Shown here: in pieces, positions 2,826-53,580 of the stretch
Numbering within the stretch: the first letter of the stretch is position 1
Layout: each line of letters starts with the position of its first letter
Assembly (NCBI GenBank): GCA_000092065.1
Contig: CP000582.1
Strand: one strand, 5' to 3'
Origin: Ostreococcus lucimarinus
Lineage: Eukaryota
Length of the DNA: 64,000 nucleotides
Made by a program: the position numbers and the translations under genes
The notes under the pieces: model-generated
Database searches by the model: none
What the model was told of the DNA's origin: nothing
What the model saw: the letters and a program-made list of their open reading frames with translations, nothing else

Positions 2826-3276
2826 AGCGCTTCGACCGTCGACCCTTCGACCGATGCCCCAGCGCCGCCGAGTCGTCCTCCGCGTCGCGCAGCGCCCGCA
2901 CCACGCGCATATTCTCATAAAAAATAGCCTCCCGCCGTCGACTCTCCTCGCAAGGATACGCGTCGGCGTCGTCGCCGCAGTACTCGCGCGCGCGTCCGCC
3001 CTCGCGCGCGAACGCCTCGAACGCCTCCCGCATCGTCCGCGCGTCTTCCTCCCTCGCCAGCGTCGTCAACAGCGCGGTCTCCATCGCCGTCGCCGTCGTC
3101 GCCGGTCTCCCGTCGCCGTCGCGCGCGTCGTCGCGCGTCGTCGGCGCTTGTTGGGTGTTGCGCGTTCGATCGTCGTCGTCGTCGTCGCCGCGCGCGACGC
3201 CCGCGCGCGTCAGCGCGAGCGCCAGCGCGCACGCGACGAGCGCGACGCGCGTCGTCGACGCGCGCGCGCGCGCCAT
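1450..3276 (-). CDS. Papain-like (C1A) cysteine protease with signal peptide, pro-region and C-terminal transmembrane anchor
   Basis: The catalytic Cys box QGACGGCWAFTT, His box NHAVVAVGFGY and NSWGTQWGENGY are all present. MARARASTTRVALVACALALALTRAG is a likely signal peptide; I set the start at the internal ATG (aa 208 of the 815-aa ORF), because the upstream part of the ORF is GC-rich read-through. The C-terminal hydrophobic helix VLYVILTTVVLVAALSMGILTII is followed by an acidic tail. Confidence 0.8.
2781..2826. repeat. (CCT)3(CGC)~11 trinucleotide microsatellite encoding poly-Glu/poly-Ala inside the protease pro-region
   Basis: cctcctcctc followed by ~11 cgc/gcc repeats; the protein reads EEEED then AAAAAAAAAAA. 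Confidence 0.8.
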
Positions 3277-3511: not shown

Positions 3512-4723
3512 ATGGTTTTTTGGGACAGTCCCGAGAGCGCGGACGAGGACGCGCGACGACCGCGCGCGCGGTGCGACGGCGAGGACATCAACCGACGCGC
3601 GACGGCGACGACGCGCGCGCGCGCGTGGTTGCGAGACGCGCTCGAGCGAGGGACGACGGCGACGGCGCGCGCGACGGCGACGAAGGAGACGTTAGTTCTG
3701 GACGACGCCGCGCGCGAAGCGCGCGAGGGAGCGACGAGCGAGGAGGAATCGAGGCACCTGCGTCGACACGTGGACGCGCTGACGAGGGAGTGCGCGGACG
3801 CCGTCGCCAGGGCGAACGCGAGCGAGATCGCGAGGGAACGATTTGAACAACTGCGGCGCGAAAATGCGGCGTTGAAAAACGCGGACGCGCTGTGCAAGAA
3901 GGCGGAGACGCGAGCGAAGGCGGCGGAGGCGAGGGCGAACGCGGCGCGGGACGCGATGGTGAGCGCGAAGCTTCGTCACGAGGCGGCGCTCAAGAAGGCG
4001 TACGAGGAAAAGGATGGCGTCGTGGAGCGCATGCGGATAGACATCGAGATGTTGCGATCGGAACTCGCGTGCGTGGAGGCCAAGGTGTCGACGCTGGAGG
4101 ATCAAAACGCGGAGATGGAGGAGGATTTGAACGAATACCGCGAAGAAACGGCGCACTTGGACGAAATCATCGCGCAGGCGGAGAGCGAGATGGTGAGAAT
4201 GCTCGAGGAGAAACGCGCGATCGAGCGTGAACTCGCGGCAAAGAGTGCGATGAACATCAAGTCGCTCATCATGAGTCCTTTCTCGCCGTCATCCAGTTCG
4301 CCGCTCGGCACGCCGCGTCTCGCCGCCGCCATGCGTTGGTTCGACACCGCCGTCGTCTCGCCAATGCGTTCGCCGTTCGCGGACATCACGAACGCCGATG
4401 ACGCCGACAACGACACCATGGGTACGAAAACACCGACCGCGCGTAAATCTCGCCTCGGACCGGGGATGAGTCCTTTACCCAAGACGCCCGGCGCCGTCGT
4501 CGAGGATTCGGCGGAGGACGTCGAGCAATACGAGAGCGACGACGAAAGCGTCGGCGTCGAGACTGTTCGAGAACGAACGTGCGAAGTCAAACGTTGGCGA
4601 TTGGTTCTTTCCAAAGTTCCCGAATCGAGACTTTACGGCAGACGTTGGAGCGACGTCGGCGTGCGCTTGCGCGTCGTCGGCGCGGTGTCGCTGTGCAACC
4701 TCGCGTCGGCGGCGTCGACGTAG
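3512..4723 (+). CDS. Coiled-coil protein of unknown function with an S/P-rich C-terminal half
   Basis: ATG at 3512. A long heptad-like region (EIARERFEQLRRENAALKNADAL...LEDQNAEMEEDLNEYREE) precedes multiple SP/TP motifs. I found no diagnostic domain. Confidence 0.4.
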   Translation: MVFWDSPESADEDARRPRARCDGEDINRRATATTRARAWLRDALERGTTATARATATKETLVLDDAAREAREGATSEEESRHLRRHVDALTRECADAVARANASEIARERFEQLRRENAALKNADALCKKAETRAKAAEARANAARDAMVSAKLRHEAALKKAYEEKDGVVERMRIDIEMLRSELACVEAKVSTLEDQNAEMEEDLNEYREETAHLDEIIAQAESEMVRMLEEKRAIERELAAKSAMNIKSLIMSPFSPSSSSPLGTPRLAAAMRWFDTAVVSPMRSPFADITNADDADNDTMGTKTPTARKSRLGPGMSPLPKTPGAVVEDSAEDVEQYESDDESVGVETVRERTCEVKRWRLVLSKVPESRLYGRRWSDVGVRLRVVGAVSLCNLASAAST

Positions 4724-49027: not shown

Positions 49028-50557
49028 TTAAACTTCGAGCATCATTCTACGCGGGTCTTCAACAGACTCCTTAATCGACTTCAAAAATGTCACGGCTTCG
49101 CGACCGTCGACGAGGCGATGATCGTACGTCAACGCCACGTTCATCATCGGGCGCGCGACGATGGCGCGGTCGGCACCGACGCACACCGGACGCCAGACGA
49201 TTGAATGCATGCCCAAAATGGCGCTTTGCGGCGGGTTGATGATGGGAGTGCCCGTCAACGATCCAAACACGCCGCCGTTTGAAATCGTAAAAGTACCGCC
49301 CGCCATTTCGTCGATGGACAGCGTTCCATCGCGAGCCTTCTTACCGTACGACGCGATGGAGCTTTCCACGTCGGCGAAATTCATGCCTTCGCAGCTTCTC
49401 AACACCGGTACCACCAAACCCTTGGGCGCGCTCACCGCGACGGATATGTCAACGTAGTTTCTATACACGATTTCGTCGCCGTCGATGATGGCGTTCACCG
49501 AGGGCTCTTCCTGAAGCGCCTTCGCCGCCGCCTTGACAAAGGTACTCATGAAACCTAGCTTGACGCCGTGTTTTTCTAAGAATGCATCCTTGTACTCCGC
49601 GCGCATTTGCATCACGTTCGTCATGTCGATTTCGTTGAACGTGGTGAGCATCGCGTACGTGTTTTGCGAGCTCTTCAACCGCTCCGCGACGCGCAAGCGC
49701 AAGCGCGACATGGGCACGCGCGTCTCGGCGCGAGCGCCCGACGTGACTTTCGGCGCCGCCGGCGCGGGCGATGGCGCAGCGGTCGCTTTCGGCGCTTCCT
49801 TGGCCGGCGTCGCCGCGGCCATCGCCGCGGCCGCTGGCGCGGCCGAAGCTTGTTTCTCCGGCCCCGCCCCCGGAGCGAGCGTCGCCACCTTTTGACCGAC
49901 GGAGACGGTGTCGCCCTCCTTCGCGAGCACGTCCGTCACCGTCCCGCTCGTCGACGCGCGAACGTCTATGGTGACTTTATCCGTTTCAATTTGCGCGATC
50001 ACTTCGTCCATCGCCACCTTTTGACCCGGTTTCACGAGCAAAGCCGCGACGCTCCCCTCCGTGATGGAGTCGCCCATCGAAGGCACCTCAACGCTCACCG
50101 GCGCGCCGCTCGCCGCCTCCGCCTTGGGCGCCGCCGCGCCGCCCTTCCCCCCCTTTTTCCCGCCGACGCCCGGCGCGAACGCCATCACCGCTTGCCCCAC
50201 GTTCACCGTATCCCCCACCTTCGCGTCCACGCGCGTCACCGTCCCCCCGCTCGGCGCCCGCACGTCGATCGTCACCTTGTCCGTCTCGATTTGCGCCACC
50301 GTCTCATCCGTCGCCACCTCGTCCCCGACCGCCTTCGTCACGCTCGCCACCGCGCCCTCCGAGATCGAATCCCCCATCGACGGCACCGCGATCGTCTCCT
50401 CTCGCGTCGCCGTCCCGCCCTTGTGCCTTCGAATCATCGTCATCGCGTCGAATCCTCCGTCGCCGATCATCGCGCGCGCGCGCGCCCTCGTCGTCGCGTT
50501 CGCCGTCTCCGTCTCGTTCGCGCCGTCGCGCGTCGTTCCCGTCGTCGCGCGTCCCAT
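49028..50557 (-). CDS. Dihydrolipoyllysine-residue succinyltransferase (2-oxoglutarate dehydrogenase E2) with two lipoyl domains
   Basis: Two [11 protein letters not shown] lipoyl-lysine motifs are followed by a catalytic domain ending [32 protein letters not shown], which is SucB-like. The ATG is real and there is an N-terminal presequence. Confidence 0.85.
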
Positions 50558-51053
50558 CGTTCGCGTCGCGTAGTGCGAGCGCTGGATACACTGGCGTCAT
50601 TCGCGCGTCGTCGATTCGTCAGTCCTCGTCGCGTCGTCGTCCGCTCGTTCGCCGAATCGCGTCGCGCGCGATCGCATCGCATTTAATCCAATCCGAATTC
50701 GAATCGAATCGCGCGCTCGAATCGCGTCGCGCGCGACGTCGCGCGTCGTCGCGCGTCGATCGTTCGCGCCCTCGCGTCGCGTCGCGCGCGCACCGTTCGA
50801 CGCGCGATCGCGTCGCGCGCGATCGCGCCGAGTCGTCGTCGCATCGCGTCGCGCTTTGGCAACGGTCGAGTCGCGGACCGACGGACGGCCGGGGACGGTC
50901 CGTGTGTCGCCTTCGCGGCGCCGCGTTCGGCGACGGCGCGTCGGCAAAACGCGCGGGACTCGACGACGACACAGGGCGTCGACTCGAGTCGCACCGCAAA
51001 GGCGCGCAGTGGTGCGACTCGTAACGCGACGGCGCCGCGAAGGCGCGAGAGAG

Positions 51054-53447
51054 ATGCGCGACGCCCGCGCGGAGGCACCGCGTCGTGGGAAAGATTTGAA
51101 ATTCGAATCGGCGTCGCGTCGAACGAGGGCGAGGGCGTCGCGCGAAGCGTTCTCGCCCGGGTCGAGCGCGTGCGCGTCCGAGCGTGGAAGTTTCGCGACG
51201 ACGACGACGGTCGAGAGCGCGTCGCGACGCGATGCGCGGGAATACACGCCGCCGCCGTTGACGGCGGAGGAGATCGCAGAGATGAACGAAGCCGTATCTG
51301 AGCTCGTCGTCGAGAGCTCCATCCCGTTCGCGTGGACGAGCTCGCCGGCGTTCTTCCGGTTCATGCACGCGCTTAGGCCTGAACTCTTCAGCGCCGCGGA
51401 GCGCGCGCGCATCGAAAGCGGCGCGGAGCTCGTCGACCAGCCCGAGAACCTTCGATGTCGCCGTTGGCACTCGACAGCCGGCGTCGACGGGTTGTACGAG
51501 AAACGTATGAAACGCGCCCTCCGTGCGCTTGAAGACTGGGAGGAGTTGGCGTTATCGGCGGATGGTTGGCAATCTGAAGATGGCGTGAAAGTACTAAACT
51601 TGTCCATAACGGTGAGAGAAACTGGTCGCGAGTACTACTGGAAGAGCGTCGAAATAGAAACGGAGTCAGAAAGCGCAGTGTTCATGCAACAGACCGCCGC
51701 GCAAGTGATGAAAGACCTCCCACTGAAGAAGTTCAAATGCATCATTGGGGACAACACCTCGCATGTCGTCAGCTTCTTGGAAGCTATCGCGGCTACTCCA
51801 GAGACATCTCACATTACTCCGATTGGTTGCTATGCACATCGTTTCAACTTGCTGGCTGGAGACGTCCACGAGACGTTCAAATTCTTATTTCTGGATCTAG
51901 AGCGGGCCATCAACAAGCTCCGTGTTCAGTCTCGAATGCGCGCGCTTTTCGACGCGGCGCGTAAAGAGAAGAATAGTAAGAAACAACTTGAGACGTACTG
52001 CCCAACGCGATGGGCGTCCGCGCATGCATGTCTACACAGCTACGTACTGAATATCGACGTGTTCAGATTTTTGGACGAAGACGACGGTGTGATCGCAAAA
52101 AATTTCCGTAAAATGTGTGAAAAAGACTCGGAATCAATCTTTAAAGTATTCTTTGACCGGGATTCGCAGATGGCAGTCCGTAGGTTAGAGCCCTTGTTCC
52201 GAGGTTTGGCGGCGGCAAACAAGTTTATGGAAGCTACTGGCGCTCATCTTGCGGAAGTCTTCCCGCTGTGCTGGGCACTAGAAAAAGACTTGAGACAGTG
52301 GCTCGCGAACGTGAAAACGAGTGCTCAACAGTCATGGATTGAACGTGCGACGCGCCAGTCATGGATTGAACGTGCGACGCGCCAGCCGACACGCGATGGA
52401 CTCACGACGCCTGAGCAATTATCAGACGTACTTCACCGAGTTTACAAAGTGCGATTCGAAGGACTGGAGGCACAGCCAGGTAACCCAAGCACGAAGCGCA
52501 CGCCGTTGCGAGACGAACCCCTCGTACATCTTGCATCATATTTGAGTTACATGATGCATGCGAGAATGCGTATCAAACATCAGTTCGTCGTGCCGGAAGT
52601 ATATGAAGCGAAAAAAGGTATCGGAAAGATTCATTTCCACTTGGAGGAAAAGAAAGCAGACGTGGAAGCAGCCAAAACGGCATTAGAAAAACTGAACGCG
52701 GTCACCTGTCCGAAAGCGGCACGACCCTACCGCGACGACTATCGCGTTCGCTTCATCGAGAATGACGCGTACATCCAAGCTTGCGCCGACAAAACGTTTG
52801 TGGACGTTACACTGGAGCAGCTTGAGTACATCAGGGCACACAACTGGTGGCGCAACTTCTTGGAGCCAGAATGCGTGCAAACCTGGCCTGCATGGAAAGA
52901 TCTAATTCCTTTCGCACGTCGTATAAACGCGATTGTTCCACATAGTGCGTCTGTTGAACGCATGAACTCGTCTCAGAAACTTGTGCACAACAAGAGGCTC
53001 AGCTTGAGCCACGCGAATGTCCAGAAGTTGTCTTTCATTTACTTCAATGCTAGGCATGAGCGCCGGTTATTCGCGAGTCCCTTTCATCGTTTGGTATCAG
53101 AGACATACGACGCAGCAGAAAGTCAAGTAGCCGCGAGTCCTGTGGTAGTTGTGGACAGCGACAGTGATGATGGAGTTGGTGAAGATGAAATCCTCTCGTC
53201 AGATGACGACGACTTAGACGAGTACTTAAAAGAGGTAGACGAGCTCGTCATGTCGCCACACGCAAACGTTTCGAATGGAACGGAAATGACAAGTTTAGGC
53301 AACCTCGATGAAACCGTGCCGGTACAGGATGATGTCTCGCATCCCACTCGGAACAAGGCAAAGGAAACTTTTGCACAGAAGACAGCTCGCAAGGCATTAG
53401 AGCGTCAAGAGAAGAAGAGACGTAGTAAGAGTAGAAGATTGCAATAG
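51054..53447 (+). mobile_element. hAT-family transposase-like gene (hAT dimerization domain at C-terminus)
   Basis: The C-terminal ..WWRNFLEPECVQTWPAWKDLIPFARRINAIVPHSASVERMNSSQKLVHNKRLSL.. is the hAT dimerization signature. The central region is transposase-like. The coding region is ~48% GC, but the 5' ~200 bp are GC-rich. It contains an internal 27-nt in-frame tandem duplication. Confidence 0.65.
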
Positions 53448-53510
53448 ATAGACTAGCGCGCGACGTGAGTCGGTTTTCGCGCGGTTCTCGTCGATTCGCC
53501 ACCGTCGTGC

Positions 53511-53580
53511 CAGCTCGTACCAGCTCGTATCAGTTCGTATCATCTCGTATCAGCTGCGATGACGACGACGACGACGACGA
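53511..53580. repeat. Five tandem 10-mers (cagctcgtaY-like) followed by (GAC)7, 64 bp downstream of the hAT ORF
   Basis: cagctcgtac cagctcgtat cagttcgtat catctcgtat cagctgcgat, then gacgacgacgacgacgacgac. They might be subterminal repeats of the element. Confidence 0.5.

What the first reader, a model, noticed from the sequence alone, without database searches (positions are those of the whole stretch)
51054..53580. hAT-family transposase-like gene with host-atypical GC, an internal 27-nt duplication and flanking tandem 10-mers: active element or domesticated transposase?
The ~800-aa ORF ends with a textbook hAT dimerization domain, and its ~48% GC contrasts with its ~65% GC surroundings. That fits horizontally mobile DNA that has not fully ameliorated. 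Immediately 3' (53511-53560) lie five tandem 10-mers (cagctcgtac/t-like), then (GAC)7; this is reminiscent of hAT subterminal repeat arrays. The 5' ~200 bp of the ORF, however, are host-like GC-rich with a low-complexity R-rich N-terminus, and I see no BED zinc finger. It could therefore equally be a domesticated, host-fused transposase (DAYSLEEPER-like). Upstream (50640-50830) there are three copies of an atcgcgtcgcgcgcga-type motif that could be the other subterminal array, but the motifs do not match the 3' ones. I could not identify TIRs or an 8-bp target-site duplication by eye.
Basis: partly seen in the sequence, partly recalled or inferred. Interest (0 to 1): 0.55.

Follow-up and report, generated by a model that had tools for sequence, protein, structure and literature searches.

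The report
Immobilised hAT transposon relic in Ostreococcus
The gene is a stranded copy of a cut-and-paste (hAT) transposon in the marine alga Ostreococcus lucimarinus: it has lost both ends and its DNA-binding finger, so it cannot move, and it is an ordinary, already annotated kind of genomic fossil.

Summary
The window is Ostreococcus lucimarinus CCE9901 chromosome 2. The ORF at 51054-53447 is XP_001416135.1, already annotated as "DodoPi transposase-like protein". It is a true hAT transposase: D170/D233/E635, CxxH and RW align with Hermes, and a confident model matches only Hermes.

Marine metagenomes hold full-length relatives (61-86% identity). These are about 3.3-kb elements with 13-bp TAGG... 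inverted ends and inverted subterminal 10-mers. One has a perfect 8-bp target duplication, and identical copies sit in different flanks. All encode an N-terminal CxxC...HxxxC finger.

The window copy keeps only the 3' 10-mer array. Homology stops at 53556, so the 3' end is gone. No 5' end is recognisable, and the finger region (about 50890-51053) is decayed and out of frame.

The copy is present in all 22 wild O. lucimarinus contigs examined and absent from the same site in three sister Ostreococcus lineages. Its branch gives dN/dS about 0.87 with GC-biased changes, strongest at the 5' end. Polymorphism hints at weak constraint (pN/pS 0.39, p 0.04).

Verdict: a young, fixed, immobile relic. 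It is neither an active element nor a conserved domesticated gene. Recent exaptation is not excluded.

The parts
50890..51053 (+). Decayed remnant of the element's N-terminal coding region, the part that encodes the CxxC...HxxxC (BED-like) finger in relatives. It is out of frame with the ORF and its Cys/His codons are lost.
   Evidence: tblastn matches P0004 aa 60-90 to window 50900-50992 (E 0.012) in a different frame from 51054. The DNA alignment A2 shows homology from about 50890, with a 16-nt deletion and 2-, 3- and 9-nt insertions. Nothing recognisable of the 5' UTR or TIR lies further upstream.
51054..53447 (+). Intact ORF of 797 aa: a hAT transposase lacking the N-terminal finger. It is identical to XP_001416135.1 / ABO94427.1, 'DodoPi transposase-like protein'.
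   Evidence: Profile hits include proteins that pass Pfam cut-offs for DUF659 + Dimer_Tnp_hAT (+ zf-BED). Hermes is hit at E 1.5e-17 by profile. The AF2 model has pLDDT 78.8, and its top nine PDB matches are all Hermes.
51054..51593 (+). Fast-evolving, GC-enriched 5' part of the ORF (codons 1-180).
   Evidence: Divergence from the closest relative L011 is 37%, 14% and 12% in successive 60-codon bins, against 2-5% further downstream. Changes are GC-biased (39:14, 20:1, 14:3). The first 63 codons are 69% GC against 49-57% in relatives, and their within-population pN/pS is 1.2-1.6.
51561..51563 (+). Codon of D170, the first catalytic Asp (ADGWQ motif).
   Evidence: Invariant in A4. Aligns with Hermes 'IDLWT'. 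Nearly invariant in the 81-sequence alignment A5.
51750..51752 (+). Codon of D233, the second catalytic Asp (GDNTSH motif).
   Evidence: Invariant in A4. Aligns with Hermes 'VTDRGANV'.
51828..51839 (+). C259-x-x-H262, the hAT CxxH motif.
   Evidence: These are the only two columns invariant in all 81 sequences of A5. They align with Hermes 'CSSH'.
52008..52013 (+). R319-W320 (TRW motif).
   Evidence: T318 and R319 are invariant in A4, and W320 is nearly invariant in A5. The motif aligns with Hermes 'PTRWNS'.
52329..52385 (+). In-frame 27-nt tandem duplication (QSWIERATR x2). It is a recent polymorphism.
   Evidence: TRF reports 2.1 copies at 100% identity. It is present in the window, L001 and L002, and absent from L003, L024 and every family relative. 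It breaks short-read assemblies: 100-N scaffold gaps fall there in L012-L019.
52956..52958 (+). Codon of E635, the catalytic Glu (SASVERMNS), inside the hAT C-terminal domain.
   Evidence: Invariant in A4. Aligns with Hermes 'SSAASERTFS'. The Pfam Dimer_Tnp_hAT sub-threshold hit covers aa 613-664.
53448..53556 (+). Retained 3' UTR and 3' subterminal region of the element, including the 10-mer array at 53511-53555.
   Evidence: It aligns column for column with the 3' regions of L010, L020, L005 and L021 up to the end of the array. In the complete copy L020 the array's exact inverted copy lies at the 5' end (858-873 against 4003-4018).
53557..53580 (+). (GAC)n microsatellite at the point where homology to the element stops. 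The last ~120 bp of the element, including the 3' TIR, are missing.
   Evidence: The same breakpoint occurs in all wild haplotypes, with 5-7 GAC units.
50656..50822 (.). CG-rich 16-mer repeats (ATCGCGTCGCGCGCGA x3, plus one variant) in the spacer towards the 2-oxoglutarate dehydrogenase E2 gene.
   Evidence: They have no counterpart in the 5' regions of relatives.

Best explanation
Window positions about 50890-53556 are the remains of one copy of an approximately 3.3-kb autonomous hAT ('DodoPi') transposon.

Insertion. The copy inserted between the 2-oxoglutarate dehydrogenase E2 gene and a 353-aa gene. This happened in the Ostreococcus lucimarinus lineage, after its split from the sister Ostreococcus lineages sampled here. 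The copy then became fixed.

Why it cannot move (shown). Intact relatives have TAGG...-type 13-bp inverted ends and inverted subterminal 10-mers, and they encode a transposase with an N-terminal CxxC...HxxxC finger; one carries a perfect 8-bp target duplication. They presumably move by DDE cut-and-paste, as Hermes and Ac do. The window copy has lost the last ~120 bp with the 3' end and all recognisable 5' terminal sequence. Its finger-coding segment has decayed out of frame. It therefore cannot be excised, and its own product lacks the module that in hAT transposases binds the transposon ends (that role is established knowledge for Hermes and Ac, not tested here).

What remains (shown). The remaining 797-codon frame keeps every catalytic and dimerisation motif.

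Why it remains (inferred). The frame is intact mainly because the copy is young. Only about 1.5% change has accumulated on its branch downstream of codon 180, so no disabling mutation is yet expected.

How it is changing (pattern shown, cause inferred). Since immobilisation it has evolved close to neutrally. It is drifting from the family's ~50% GC towards the host's high GC, fastest at the end next to the E2 promoter region. A local hotspot of GC-biased gene conversion or mutation would explain this.
For: Identity and prior annotation.

hAT membership:
- Profile A1 finds 655 relatives. Among them are proteins that pass Pfam cut-offs for DUF659 + Dimer_Tnp_hAT + zf-BED.
- D170, D233, C259/H262, R319 and E635 are invariant in alignment A4.
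- Profile A4 hits Hermes 2bw3 at E 1.5e-17 with all motifs aligned.
- The AF2 model (pLDDT 78.8, pTM 0.76) has Hermes chains as its top nine PDB matches (E 4e-10 to 5e-8, TM 0.51-0.66 normalised to the target). The next match is at E 0.016.

A mobile family exists:
- The identical 3310-bp element TAGGGGTGCAGCA...TGCTGCACCCCTA sits in five different flank pairs, L005-L009.
- L020 has a perfect 8-bp TSD, GGTTTATG, and L009 matches at 7 of 7 visible bases.
- The subterminal repeats are inverted between the two ends.
- Nine aligned full-length relatives carry the N-terminal CxxC...HxxxC motif, and it aligns with a Pfam-positive zf-BED in P0143.

Truncation and decay of the window copy.

Fixed but lineage-specific:
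- All 22 wild O. lucimarinus contigs carry it in the same place.
- Three sister lineages keep the flanking gene order and have no homologue. In L030 the spacer is about 330 bp, against 3083 bp in the window.
- There is no second copy in the window.

Relaxed constraint:
- The window branch has 13 synonymous and 41 non-synonymous changes, omega 0.87, which fits neutrality (P 0.39).
- The sister L011 branch has 12 and 15, omega 0.34 (P 0.007).
- Long-term family omega is 0.33-0.37.
- The window copy has 12 private changes at otherwise invariant columns, against 3 and 7 in its closest relatives.

An intact frame is not surprising: P(no stop) is 0.07-0.21 even for 49-85 neutral substitutions.

Amelioration and gradient.
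Against: - Within-population polymorphism in the ORF body shows fewer non-synonymous variants than neutrality predicts: 8 synonymous and 11 non-synonymous, pN/pS 0.39, one-sided P 0.039. This is after removing two haplotypes with imported-looking patches. The ratio is no higher than in the neighbouring genuine genes, 0.24-0.72.
- All 22 wild haplotypes keep the frame. Every indel in the body is a multiple of three.
- All catalytic and dimerisation residues are intact.
- The window-branch against L011-branch contrast is only marginal (Fisher p 0.077).
- The polarisation rests on short metagenome contigs that may be chimeric, and L011 itself carries an in-frame stop in its N-terminal part.
- The 5-fold difference in synonymous divergence between the 5' and 3' parts has another possible cause: the 3' part may have been refreshed by gene conversion from a mobile copy. 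In that case the relic would be older than assumed.
- I could not search the rest of the CCE9901 genome for other copies or test expression.
Confidence: 0.62

Rival explanations
1. Recent exaptation. The finger-less but otherwise intact transposase is kept by selection in O. lucimarinus. One possible role is as a dominant-negative partner: it would multimerise with full-length transposase of incoming elements through the hAT C-terminal and insertion-domain interfaces and poison their transposition. Another host function is also possible.
For: - Fixed in all 22 wild haplotypes with the frame kept and only in-frame indels.
- Polymorphism pN/pS is 0.39 (P 0.039), similar to neighbouring genes.
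- All DDE, CxxH, RW and C-terminal-domain residues are intact.
- Downstream of codon 201 only 3 private changes fall on family-invariant columns.
- Mobile relatives occur in the same kinds of marine samples.
- O. lucimarinus is reported as TE-poor (bioRxiv 10.1101/2025.04.21.649811).
Against: - Branch dN/dS is 0.87, and 1.45 for codons 181-797 (3.5 synonymous, 18.5 non-synonymous). Neither differs from neutral, whereas the sister copy shows 0.34.
- The site is empty in sister lineages, so there is no long-term conservation.
- Known domesticated hATs typically keep the BED finger and lose catalytic residues (my knowledge of ZBED and DAYSLEEPER). This copy shows the opposite pattern.
- The N-terminus and any promoter are decaying and hypervariable.
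- The copy is young enough for an intact frame to arise by chance.
- There are no expression data.
Confidence: 0.28
2. A still-active autonomous hAT element whose ends were simply not recognised by eye.
For: The ORF is intact and carries a complete DDE signature. The 3' subterminal repeats are present.
Against: - There is no TIR within 4.5 kb other than CG-rich low-complexity matches. The family TIR with up to 3 mismatches is absent from the locus.
- Homology to complete relatives ends at 53556, ~120 bp short of the 3' end, and begins only at about 50890.
- The finger is destroyed.
- The position and breakpoints are identical in all wild contigs.
Confidence: 0.02
3. An ancient domesticated hAT gene (DAYSLEEPER/ZBED-like) conserved in Mamiellales.
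For: It is single copy in the window, lacks TIRs and has an intact frame.
Against: - It is absent from the syntenic site in three sister Ostreococcus lineages, and no relative lies elsewhere on those contigs.
- It is only 2-5% diverged from a mobile-type relative over most of its length.
- Its composition is still that of the element family.
- The BED finger is lost rather than kept.
Confidence: 0.03

Closest known systems
Hermes transposase (Musca domestica hAT element; PDB 2BW3, 4D1Q, 6DWW, 8EDG, 8SJD)
   Same: The fold is the same: an RNase-H-like catalytic domain interrupted by a large all-alpha insertion domain (Foldseek E 4e-10, about 620 aligned columns). The motifs are the same: D..W, DN/DR, CxxH, TRW and SAxxER. 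Relatives of the window copy have short TIRs and an 8-bp TSD, as Hermes does (8-bp TSD and TIRs for Hermes are from my knowledge).
   Different: Sequence identity is only about 13%. The window protein lacks the N-terminal BED/DNA-binding region that Hermes has. It carries a ~130-aa acidic, disordered tail plus a basic C-terminal helix after the hAT domain. The window copy has no transposon ends.
Full-length 'DodoPi'-type hAT elements in marine metagenomes (L005-L009, L010, L020, L021; proteins P0003-P0012)
   Same: Protein identity is 61-86% and DNA identity 77-92%. The 3' UTR and 10-mer subterminal array are the same, and so is the ~50% GC composition.
   Different: The relatives carry about 110 extra N-terminal residues with the CxxC...HxxxC finger. 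They also have 5' and 3' TIRs, inverted subterminal repeats on both sides, variable flanks and, in L020, an 8-bp TSD. The window copy has none of these except the 3' array.
Domesticated hAT transposases (DAYSLEEPER, ZBED family)
   Same: They are hAT-derived, immobile, single-copy ORFs without TIRs.
   Different: Those genes are conserved at orthologous positions across species and are under purifying selection. They generally keep the BED finger while losing catalytic residues (my knowledge). Here the site is empty in sister lineages and branch dN/dS is about 0.87. The finger is lost and the DDE triad is kept.
N-terminally truncated transposase inhibitors (Tn5 Inh, P-element KP-type repressors): a functional analogy only
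   Same: The product lacks the N-terminal DNA-binding part but keeps the multimerisation surfaces.
   Different: There is no evidence here for expression or inhibition. Those inhibitors are encoded by the active element itself or by internally deleted copies, not by a fixed relic. This is an analogy from my knowledge, not tested.

Membership tests
hAT superfamily transposase (protein) | DDE catalytic triad on an RNase-H-like fold interrupted by an alpha-helical insertion domain | tested here: met
   D170, D233 and E635 are invariant in A4 and align with the Hermes motifs. The AF2 model has pLDDT 78.8, and its top nine PDB matches are all Hermes.
hAT superfamily transposase (protein) | CxxH and (T)RW motifs | tested here: met
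   C259/H262 are the only columns invariant across 81 sequences. R319/W320 are nearly invariant. Both align with Hermes.
hAT superfamily transposase (protein) | hAT C-terminal dimerisation domain (Pfam PF05699) | tested here: inconclusive
   Pfam on the window protein gives E 0.021 and 15 bits, below the 21.4-bit cut-off. Relatives score 13-19 bits. However, the region aligns with Hermes residues ~441-526 in the profile search, and transitive relatives pass the cut-off.
hAT superfamily transposase (protein) | N-terminal BED-type zinc finger | tested here: not met
   It is absent from the window ORF, and the remnant upstream is out of frame with its Cys/His codons lost. Relatives have CxxC-x15-HxxxC. 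This is not recognised by Pfam zf-BED but aligns with the Pfam-positive finger of P0143.
hAT transposon (element) | Short terminal inverted repeats | tested here: not met
   None at the window locus. They are present in relatives: TAGGGGTGCAGCA / TGCTGCACCCCTA.
hAT transposon (element) | 8-bp target-site duplication | not testable with these tools
   Both ends of the window copy are missing, and the sister-species spacer is too diverged to place the breakpoints. In relatives, L020 has a perfect GGTTTATG and L009 matches 7/7. L005-L008 and L021 have none, possibly because of chimeric short-read assembly.
hAT transposon (element) | Subterminal short repeats near the ends | tested here: met
   The window array 53511-53555 is homologous to the 3' subterminal array of relatives. 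In L020 the same repeat is inverted at the 5' end. The window's 5' array is missing.
hAT transposon (element) | Mobility or multiple insertion sites | tested here: not met
   The window copy is in one place only, identical in 22 wild contigs. For the family the feature is met: identical elements sit in five different flank pairs.
Domesticated hAT gene (DAYSLEEPER/ZBED-like) | Orthologous, syntenic conservation across species | tested here: not met
   The site is empty in three sister Ostreococcus lineages that keep the flanking gene order.
Domesticated hAT gene (DAYSLEEPER/ZBED-like) | Purifying selection on the coding sequence | tested here: inconclusive
   Branch omega is 0.87, not different from 1. 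Polymorphism pN/pS is 0.39 with P 0.039.
Domesticated hAT gene (DAYSLEEPER/ZBED-like) | Expression from a host promoter and a host function | not testable with these tools
   No transcript data are available. No paper held mentions the accession.

The most novel reading that the evidence does not exclude
The fixed, finger-less but catalytically and structurally intact transposase is retained in TE-poor O. lucimarinus as a dominant-negative inhibitor. It would co-assemble with full-length transposase of invading elements of the same family and block their spread. This would be a host-fixed analogue of Tn5 Inh or P-element KP repressors, caught at a very early stage of domestication.
Probability: 0.1. 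Interest if true: 0.55.

Novelty: new member of a known kind. Interest (0 to 1): 0.2.

Why it matters
In itself it matters little. It is an ordinary transposon fossil, and GenBank has already called it transposase-like since the 2007 genome.

Three things give it modest value.
- It ties the uninformative name 'DodoPi' to the hAT superfamily, with defined ends, target duplication and catalytic residues.
- It shows that intact, apparently mobile relatives circulate in wild Ostreococcus-like populations, while the reportedly TE-poor O. lucimarinus reference holds an immobilised copy at this locus (the rest of its genome was not searched).
- It gives a dated natural experiment: neutral-like DNA drifting from ~50% GC towards host GC, with a steep gradient next to a promoter region, 3.6 kb from the edge of the dimorphic low-GC region of chromosome 2.

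If the minority reading (a repressor) were true, it would be an example of transposase exaptation at its earliest stage.

Tried and rejected
1. Short cluster members (293-332 aa) on long contigs looked like disrupted wild alleles. They are artefacts: the scaffolds have 100-N gaps exactly at the 27-nt duplication.
2. AF2 with the 10-sequence family alignment gave pLDDT 37 and was discarded. The 81-sequence alignment worked.
3. A PDB profile search with the family alone (A1) found nothing relevant. Hermes appeared only after adding canonical relatives.
4. Pfam zf-BED does not recognise the relatives' finger.
5. A second word-indexed protein search with the profile added no new relatives.
6. There are no relatives in viral contigs.
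7. 'DodoPi' and the accession numbers are not found in the held literature. The Palenik 2007 and Derelle 2006 genome papers are not held.
8. I tried to place the insertion breakpoints or TSD by aligning the window spacer to the empty sites of sister species. The intergenic DNA is too diverged.
9. TSDs are absent around L005-L008 and L021. I attribute this to flank mixing in short-read assembly of multi-copy elements, but that is an inference.
10. The upstream CG-rich 16-mers as a 5' subterminal array: rejected, because they have no homology to the relatives' 5' ends.
11. An intact ORF as proof of selection: rejected, because simulation gives P(no stop) 0.07-0.21 under neutrality.
12. The raw population pN/pS was inflated by patches in L015 (51432-51497) and L041 (53048-53185) that match other family members. 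I recomputed it without them.
Full report
WHERE WE ARE. Exact look-up of five window proteins shows the window is Ostreococcus lucimarinus CCE9901, an 895,087-bp record; by its size and its low-GC segment I take this to be chromosome 2. The ORF at 51054-53447 is identical to XP_001416135.1 / ABO94427.1. That protein is already annotated as 'DodoPi transposase-like protein'. I found no paper in the held library that uses that name or the accessions.

CHECK OF THE OBSERVATION. The following features are all present:
- the ORF of 797 aa from ATG 51054, open upstream to TTG 50856;
- the exact in-frame 27-nt duplication at 52329-52385, the CAGCTCGTAT array (4.5 copies) at 53511-53555, and the trinucleotide run at 53557-53580;
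- three exact upstream 16-mers.

No terminal inverted repeats flank the ORF. There are only CG-rich low-complexity matches.

Pfam gives only sub-threshold hits: DUF659 at 29.4 bits (cut-off 34.7) and Dimer_Tnp_hAT at 15 bits (cut-off 21.4). So 'textbook' was too strong.

On composition, the ORF body is 50-52% GC with GC3 0.55-0.59. The 23 large ORFs tabulated in the first 57 kb (some overlap one another) have GC3 0.63-0.85, and intergenic DNA is near 70%. O. lucimarinus is about 60% GC overall (PMC3491373). The gene is therefore the lowest-GC gene of the 'standard' part of the window. A 48% GC region begins at 57.14 kb.

IS IT A hAT TRANSPOSASE? Yes.
- A profile of the family finds 655 relatives among 1.84 billion representatives.
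- Several full-length hits pass Pfam's own cut-offs for DUF659 + Dimer_Tnp_hAT, and one also passes zf-BED.
- In an alignment with these, D170-G171, D233-N234, C259...H262, T318-R319 and E635-R636 of the window protein are invariant. In an 81-sequence alignment, C259 and H262 are the only fully invariant columns.
- The profile of that alignment hits Hermes transposase (2BW3, 4D1Q, 6DWW, 8EDG) at E 1.5e-17 over the whole catalytic region. The motifs DGW/DLW, DN/DR, CxxH, TRW and SAxxER are in register.
- An AlphaFold model built on the 81-sequence alignment is confident (pLDDT 78.8, pTM 0.76; residues ~61-690 mostly above 90). Its top nine PDB matches are all Hermes (E 4e-10 to 5e-8, ~620 columns), followed by a drop to E 0.016.

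A first model from ten sequences (pLDDT 37) was discarded.

THE FAMILY ELSEWHERE. Protein search gives a graded series of full-length relatives (86% down to 61% identity, 845-919 aa), all from marine metagenomes and mostly on 3-4-kb contigs.
- Nine aligned full-length relatives carry about 110 extra N-terminal residues with the motif KRWYVCKGC-x15-HVLHC.
- Five contigs with the identical protein P0008 contain the same 3310-bp element. It is bounded by TAGGGGTGCAGCA and TGCTGCACCCCTA and sits in five unrelated flank pairs.
- L020 is a complete copy flanked by a perfect 8-bp duplication, GGTTTATG. L009 matches at 7 of 7 visible bases.
- The other contigs show no duplication. I attribute this to flank mixing in short-read assemblies of a multi-copy element. 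That is an inference.
- In L020 the 3' 10-mer array has an exact inverted copy at the 5' end (858-873 against 4003-4018), and there is further inverted subterminal similarity.

So the family has the hAT element hallmarks, and it has moved.

WHAT THE WINDOW COPY HAS LOST.
- 3' side. The window aligns with relatives from the stop codon through the 10-mer array. It then diverges abruptly at 53556/53557 into (GAC)n and host-like CG-rich DNA. Relatives continue for ~120 bp to the 3' TIR.
- 5' side. Homology is recognisable only from about 50890. The segment that encodes the finger in relatives has a 16-nt deletion, small insertions and lost Cys/His codons, and it lies in another frame.
- No 5' UTR, subterminal repeat or TIR is recognisable in the ~330 bp left before the E2 start codon at 50557.
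- The upstream 16-mers are unrelated to the element.

The annotated ATG falls just after the former finger.

FIXED IN THE SPECIES, ABSENT IN SISTER LINEAGES. All 22 wild contigs of O. lucimarinus type carry the copy at the same place. They share the same 3' breakpoint. Orthologous contigs of three other Ostreococcus lineages were identified by their orf359 orthologs (83%, 79% and 72% identical). They keep the order acetyltransferase - orf359 - orf353 - (TPT in one lineage) - E2 - ABC1. They contain no relative of the transposase (tblastn E <= 1). In L030 the orf353-E2 spacer is about 330 bp, against 3083 bp in the window.

SELECTION AND AGE.
- Pairwise dN/dS of the ORF body is 0.77 against the two closest relatives and 0.33-0.37 against distant ones.
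- Changes were polarised with L011, L010 and L020. The window branch has 13 synonymous and 41 non-synonymous changes, omega 0.87, which fits neutrality (P 0.39). The sister L011 branch has 12 and 15, omega 0.34 (P 0.007). The contrast between the two branches is marginal (Fisher p 0.077).
- The window copy has 12 private replacements at columns invariant in all relatives, against 3 and 7 for its closest relatives. Nine of the twelve lie in residues 77-201.
- Divergence from L011 falls from 37% (codons 1-60) through 14% and 12% to 2-5% from codon 181 on. The excess is strongly AT->GC.
- Over the whole branch there are 31 AT->GC against 9 GC->AT changes. Other branches are balanced.
- Relatives are ~50% GC in the body and 49-57% in the N-terminal stretch, where the window has 69%.
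- The intact frame is not evidence of selection. Simulation gives P(no stop) of 0.07-0.21 for 49-85 neutral substitutions. Only about 22 changes lie downstream of codon 180.

Against pure neutrality, the polymorphism data point the other way. Two haplotypes with patches that look imported from other family members were removed (L015 51432-51497 and L041 53048-53185). Polymorphism in the body is then 8 synonymous to 11 non-synonymous, pN/pS 0.39, P 0.039. This is comparable with the neighbouring genes at 0.24-0.72. The first 63 codons behave neutrally and are hypervariable (pN/pS 1.2-1.6).

THE 27-nt DUPLICATION. It is a presence/absence polymorphism. It is in the window, L001 and L002, and it is absent from L003, L024 and all relatives. 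It also explains the 100-N gaps and the 'short proteins' in scaffolded assemblies. It has no evident significance beyond replication slippage.

CONCLUSION. The locus is a young, fixed and immobile relic of a hAT transposon. It lacks its termini and its DNA-binding finger, and it is drifting towards host composition. It is not an active element and not a conserved domesticated gene.

Is the remaining catalytic-plus-dimerisation protein simply not yet broken (my preferred reading, ~0.6)? Or is it beginning to be used, for example as a dominant-negative inhibitor (~0.1 for that mechanism, ~0.28 for any exaptation)? Sequence alone cannot settle this.

The finding is ordinary for a specialist. The gene was already annotated as transposase-like.

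Noticed in passing
window 57142 onward (GC drop at ~57.2 kb); loci L036-L045, L001, L002: Wild O. lucimarinus contigs split into two structural haplotypes exactly at window 57142, where GC falls from ~61% to ~48%. The window and L042-L044 continue into an Omp85/Toc75-like gene (99.9% identity as far as 60701). L001, L002, L036-L041 and L045 continue into 2OG-FeII oxygenase - kinase - RPE65/GST. That second arrangement is also the one in sister species. This fits the edge of the low-GC 'BOC1' / candidate mating-type region described for O. tauri chromosome 2 (PMC5498103). The relic lies 3.6 kb outside it.
   Followed up: partly
window 50557-51700: The spacer and the first ~650 bp of the relic are far more polymorphic in wild contigs than the neighbouring genes. 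In the first 63 codons 8% of synonymous and 13% of non-synonymous sites segregate, and in 51243-52328 4.6% of synonymous sites do. The 3' half and the neighbours are at 0.4-0.8%. The same stretch shows strongly GC-biased substitution. This suggests a local hotspot of mutation or gene conversion next to the E2 promoter. The cause is not established.
   Followed up: partly
L023 3255-3300; L004 ~3020-3060: In two diverged family members the 3' end of the element is followed, after exactly 8 bp (CCCGGGAT / CCCGGGGC), by the 5' end of a second, different element of the family. Possible causes are adjacent insertions sharing a target site, a head-to-tail junction, or an assembly artefact.
   Followed up: no
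L029 4184-4921; L027: L029 has a family 5' end (TAGGCCTGCTGCA...) followed by a fragment covering only residues ~104-241 of the transposase, with the second catalytic Asp changed (GGNTGQ). It lies between large glycosyltransferase-like ORFs in low-GC DNA. It is probably an internally deleted, non-autonomous copy.
   Followed up: no
L021 5920-6954 (- strand): A 344-aa ORF with a CCHC zinc knuckle (CYNCSEKGHLYFQC), Gag-like, lies right next to a full-length copy. The mobile relatives therefore sit in TE-rich DNA.
   Followed up: no
L015 (window-equivalent 51432-51497); L041 (53048-53185); proteins P0005, P0020: Relic haplotypes and metagenome proteins contain short patches or halves that match other family members. 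These are either gene conversion between the relic and mobile copies in one genome, or chimeric assembly of co-occurring genomes.
   Followed up: partly
L011 ~355-360: The closest full-length-type relative (P0003, 86% identity) has an in-frame TAG in its N-terminal region, upstream of the finger. It may itself be a decaying copy.
   Followed up: no
window-wide: Intergenic DNA is consistently richer in GC (~70-77%) than coding DNA (52-65%) in the standard part of the window, for example at 46.1-46.5 kb, 50-51 kb and 56.8-57.2 kb. This is the composition towards which the relic's 5' end is moving.
   Followed up: no
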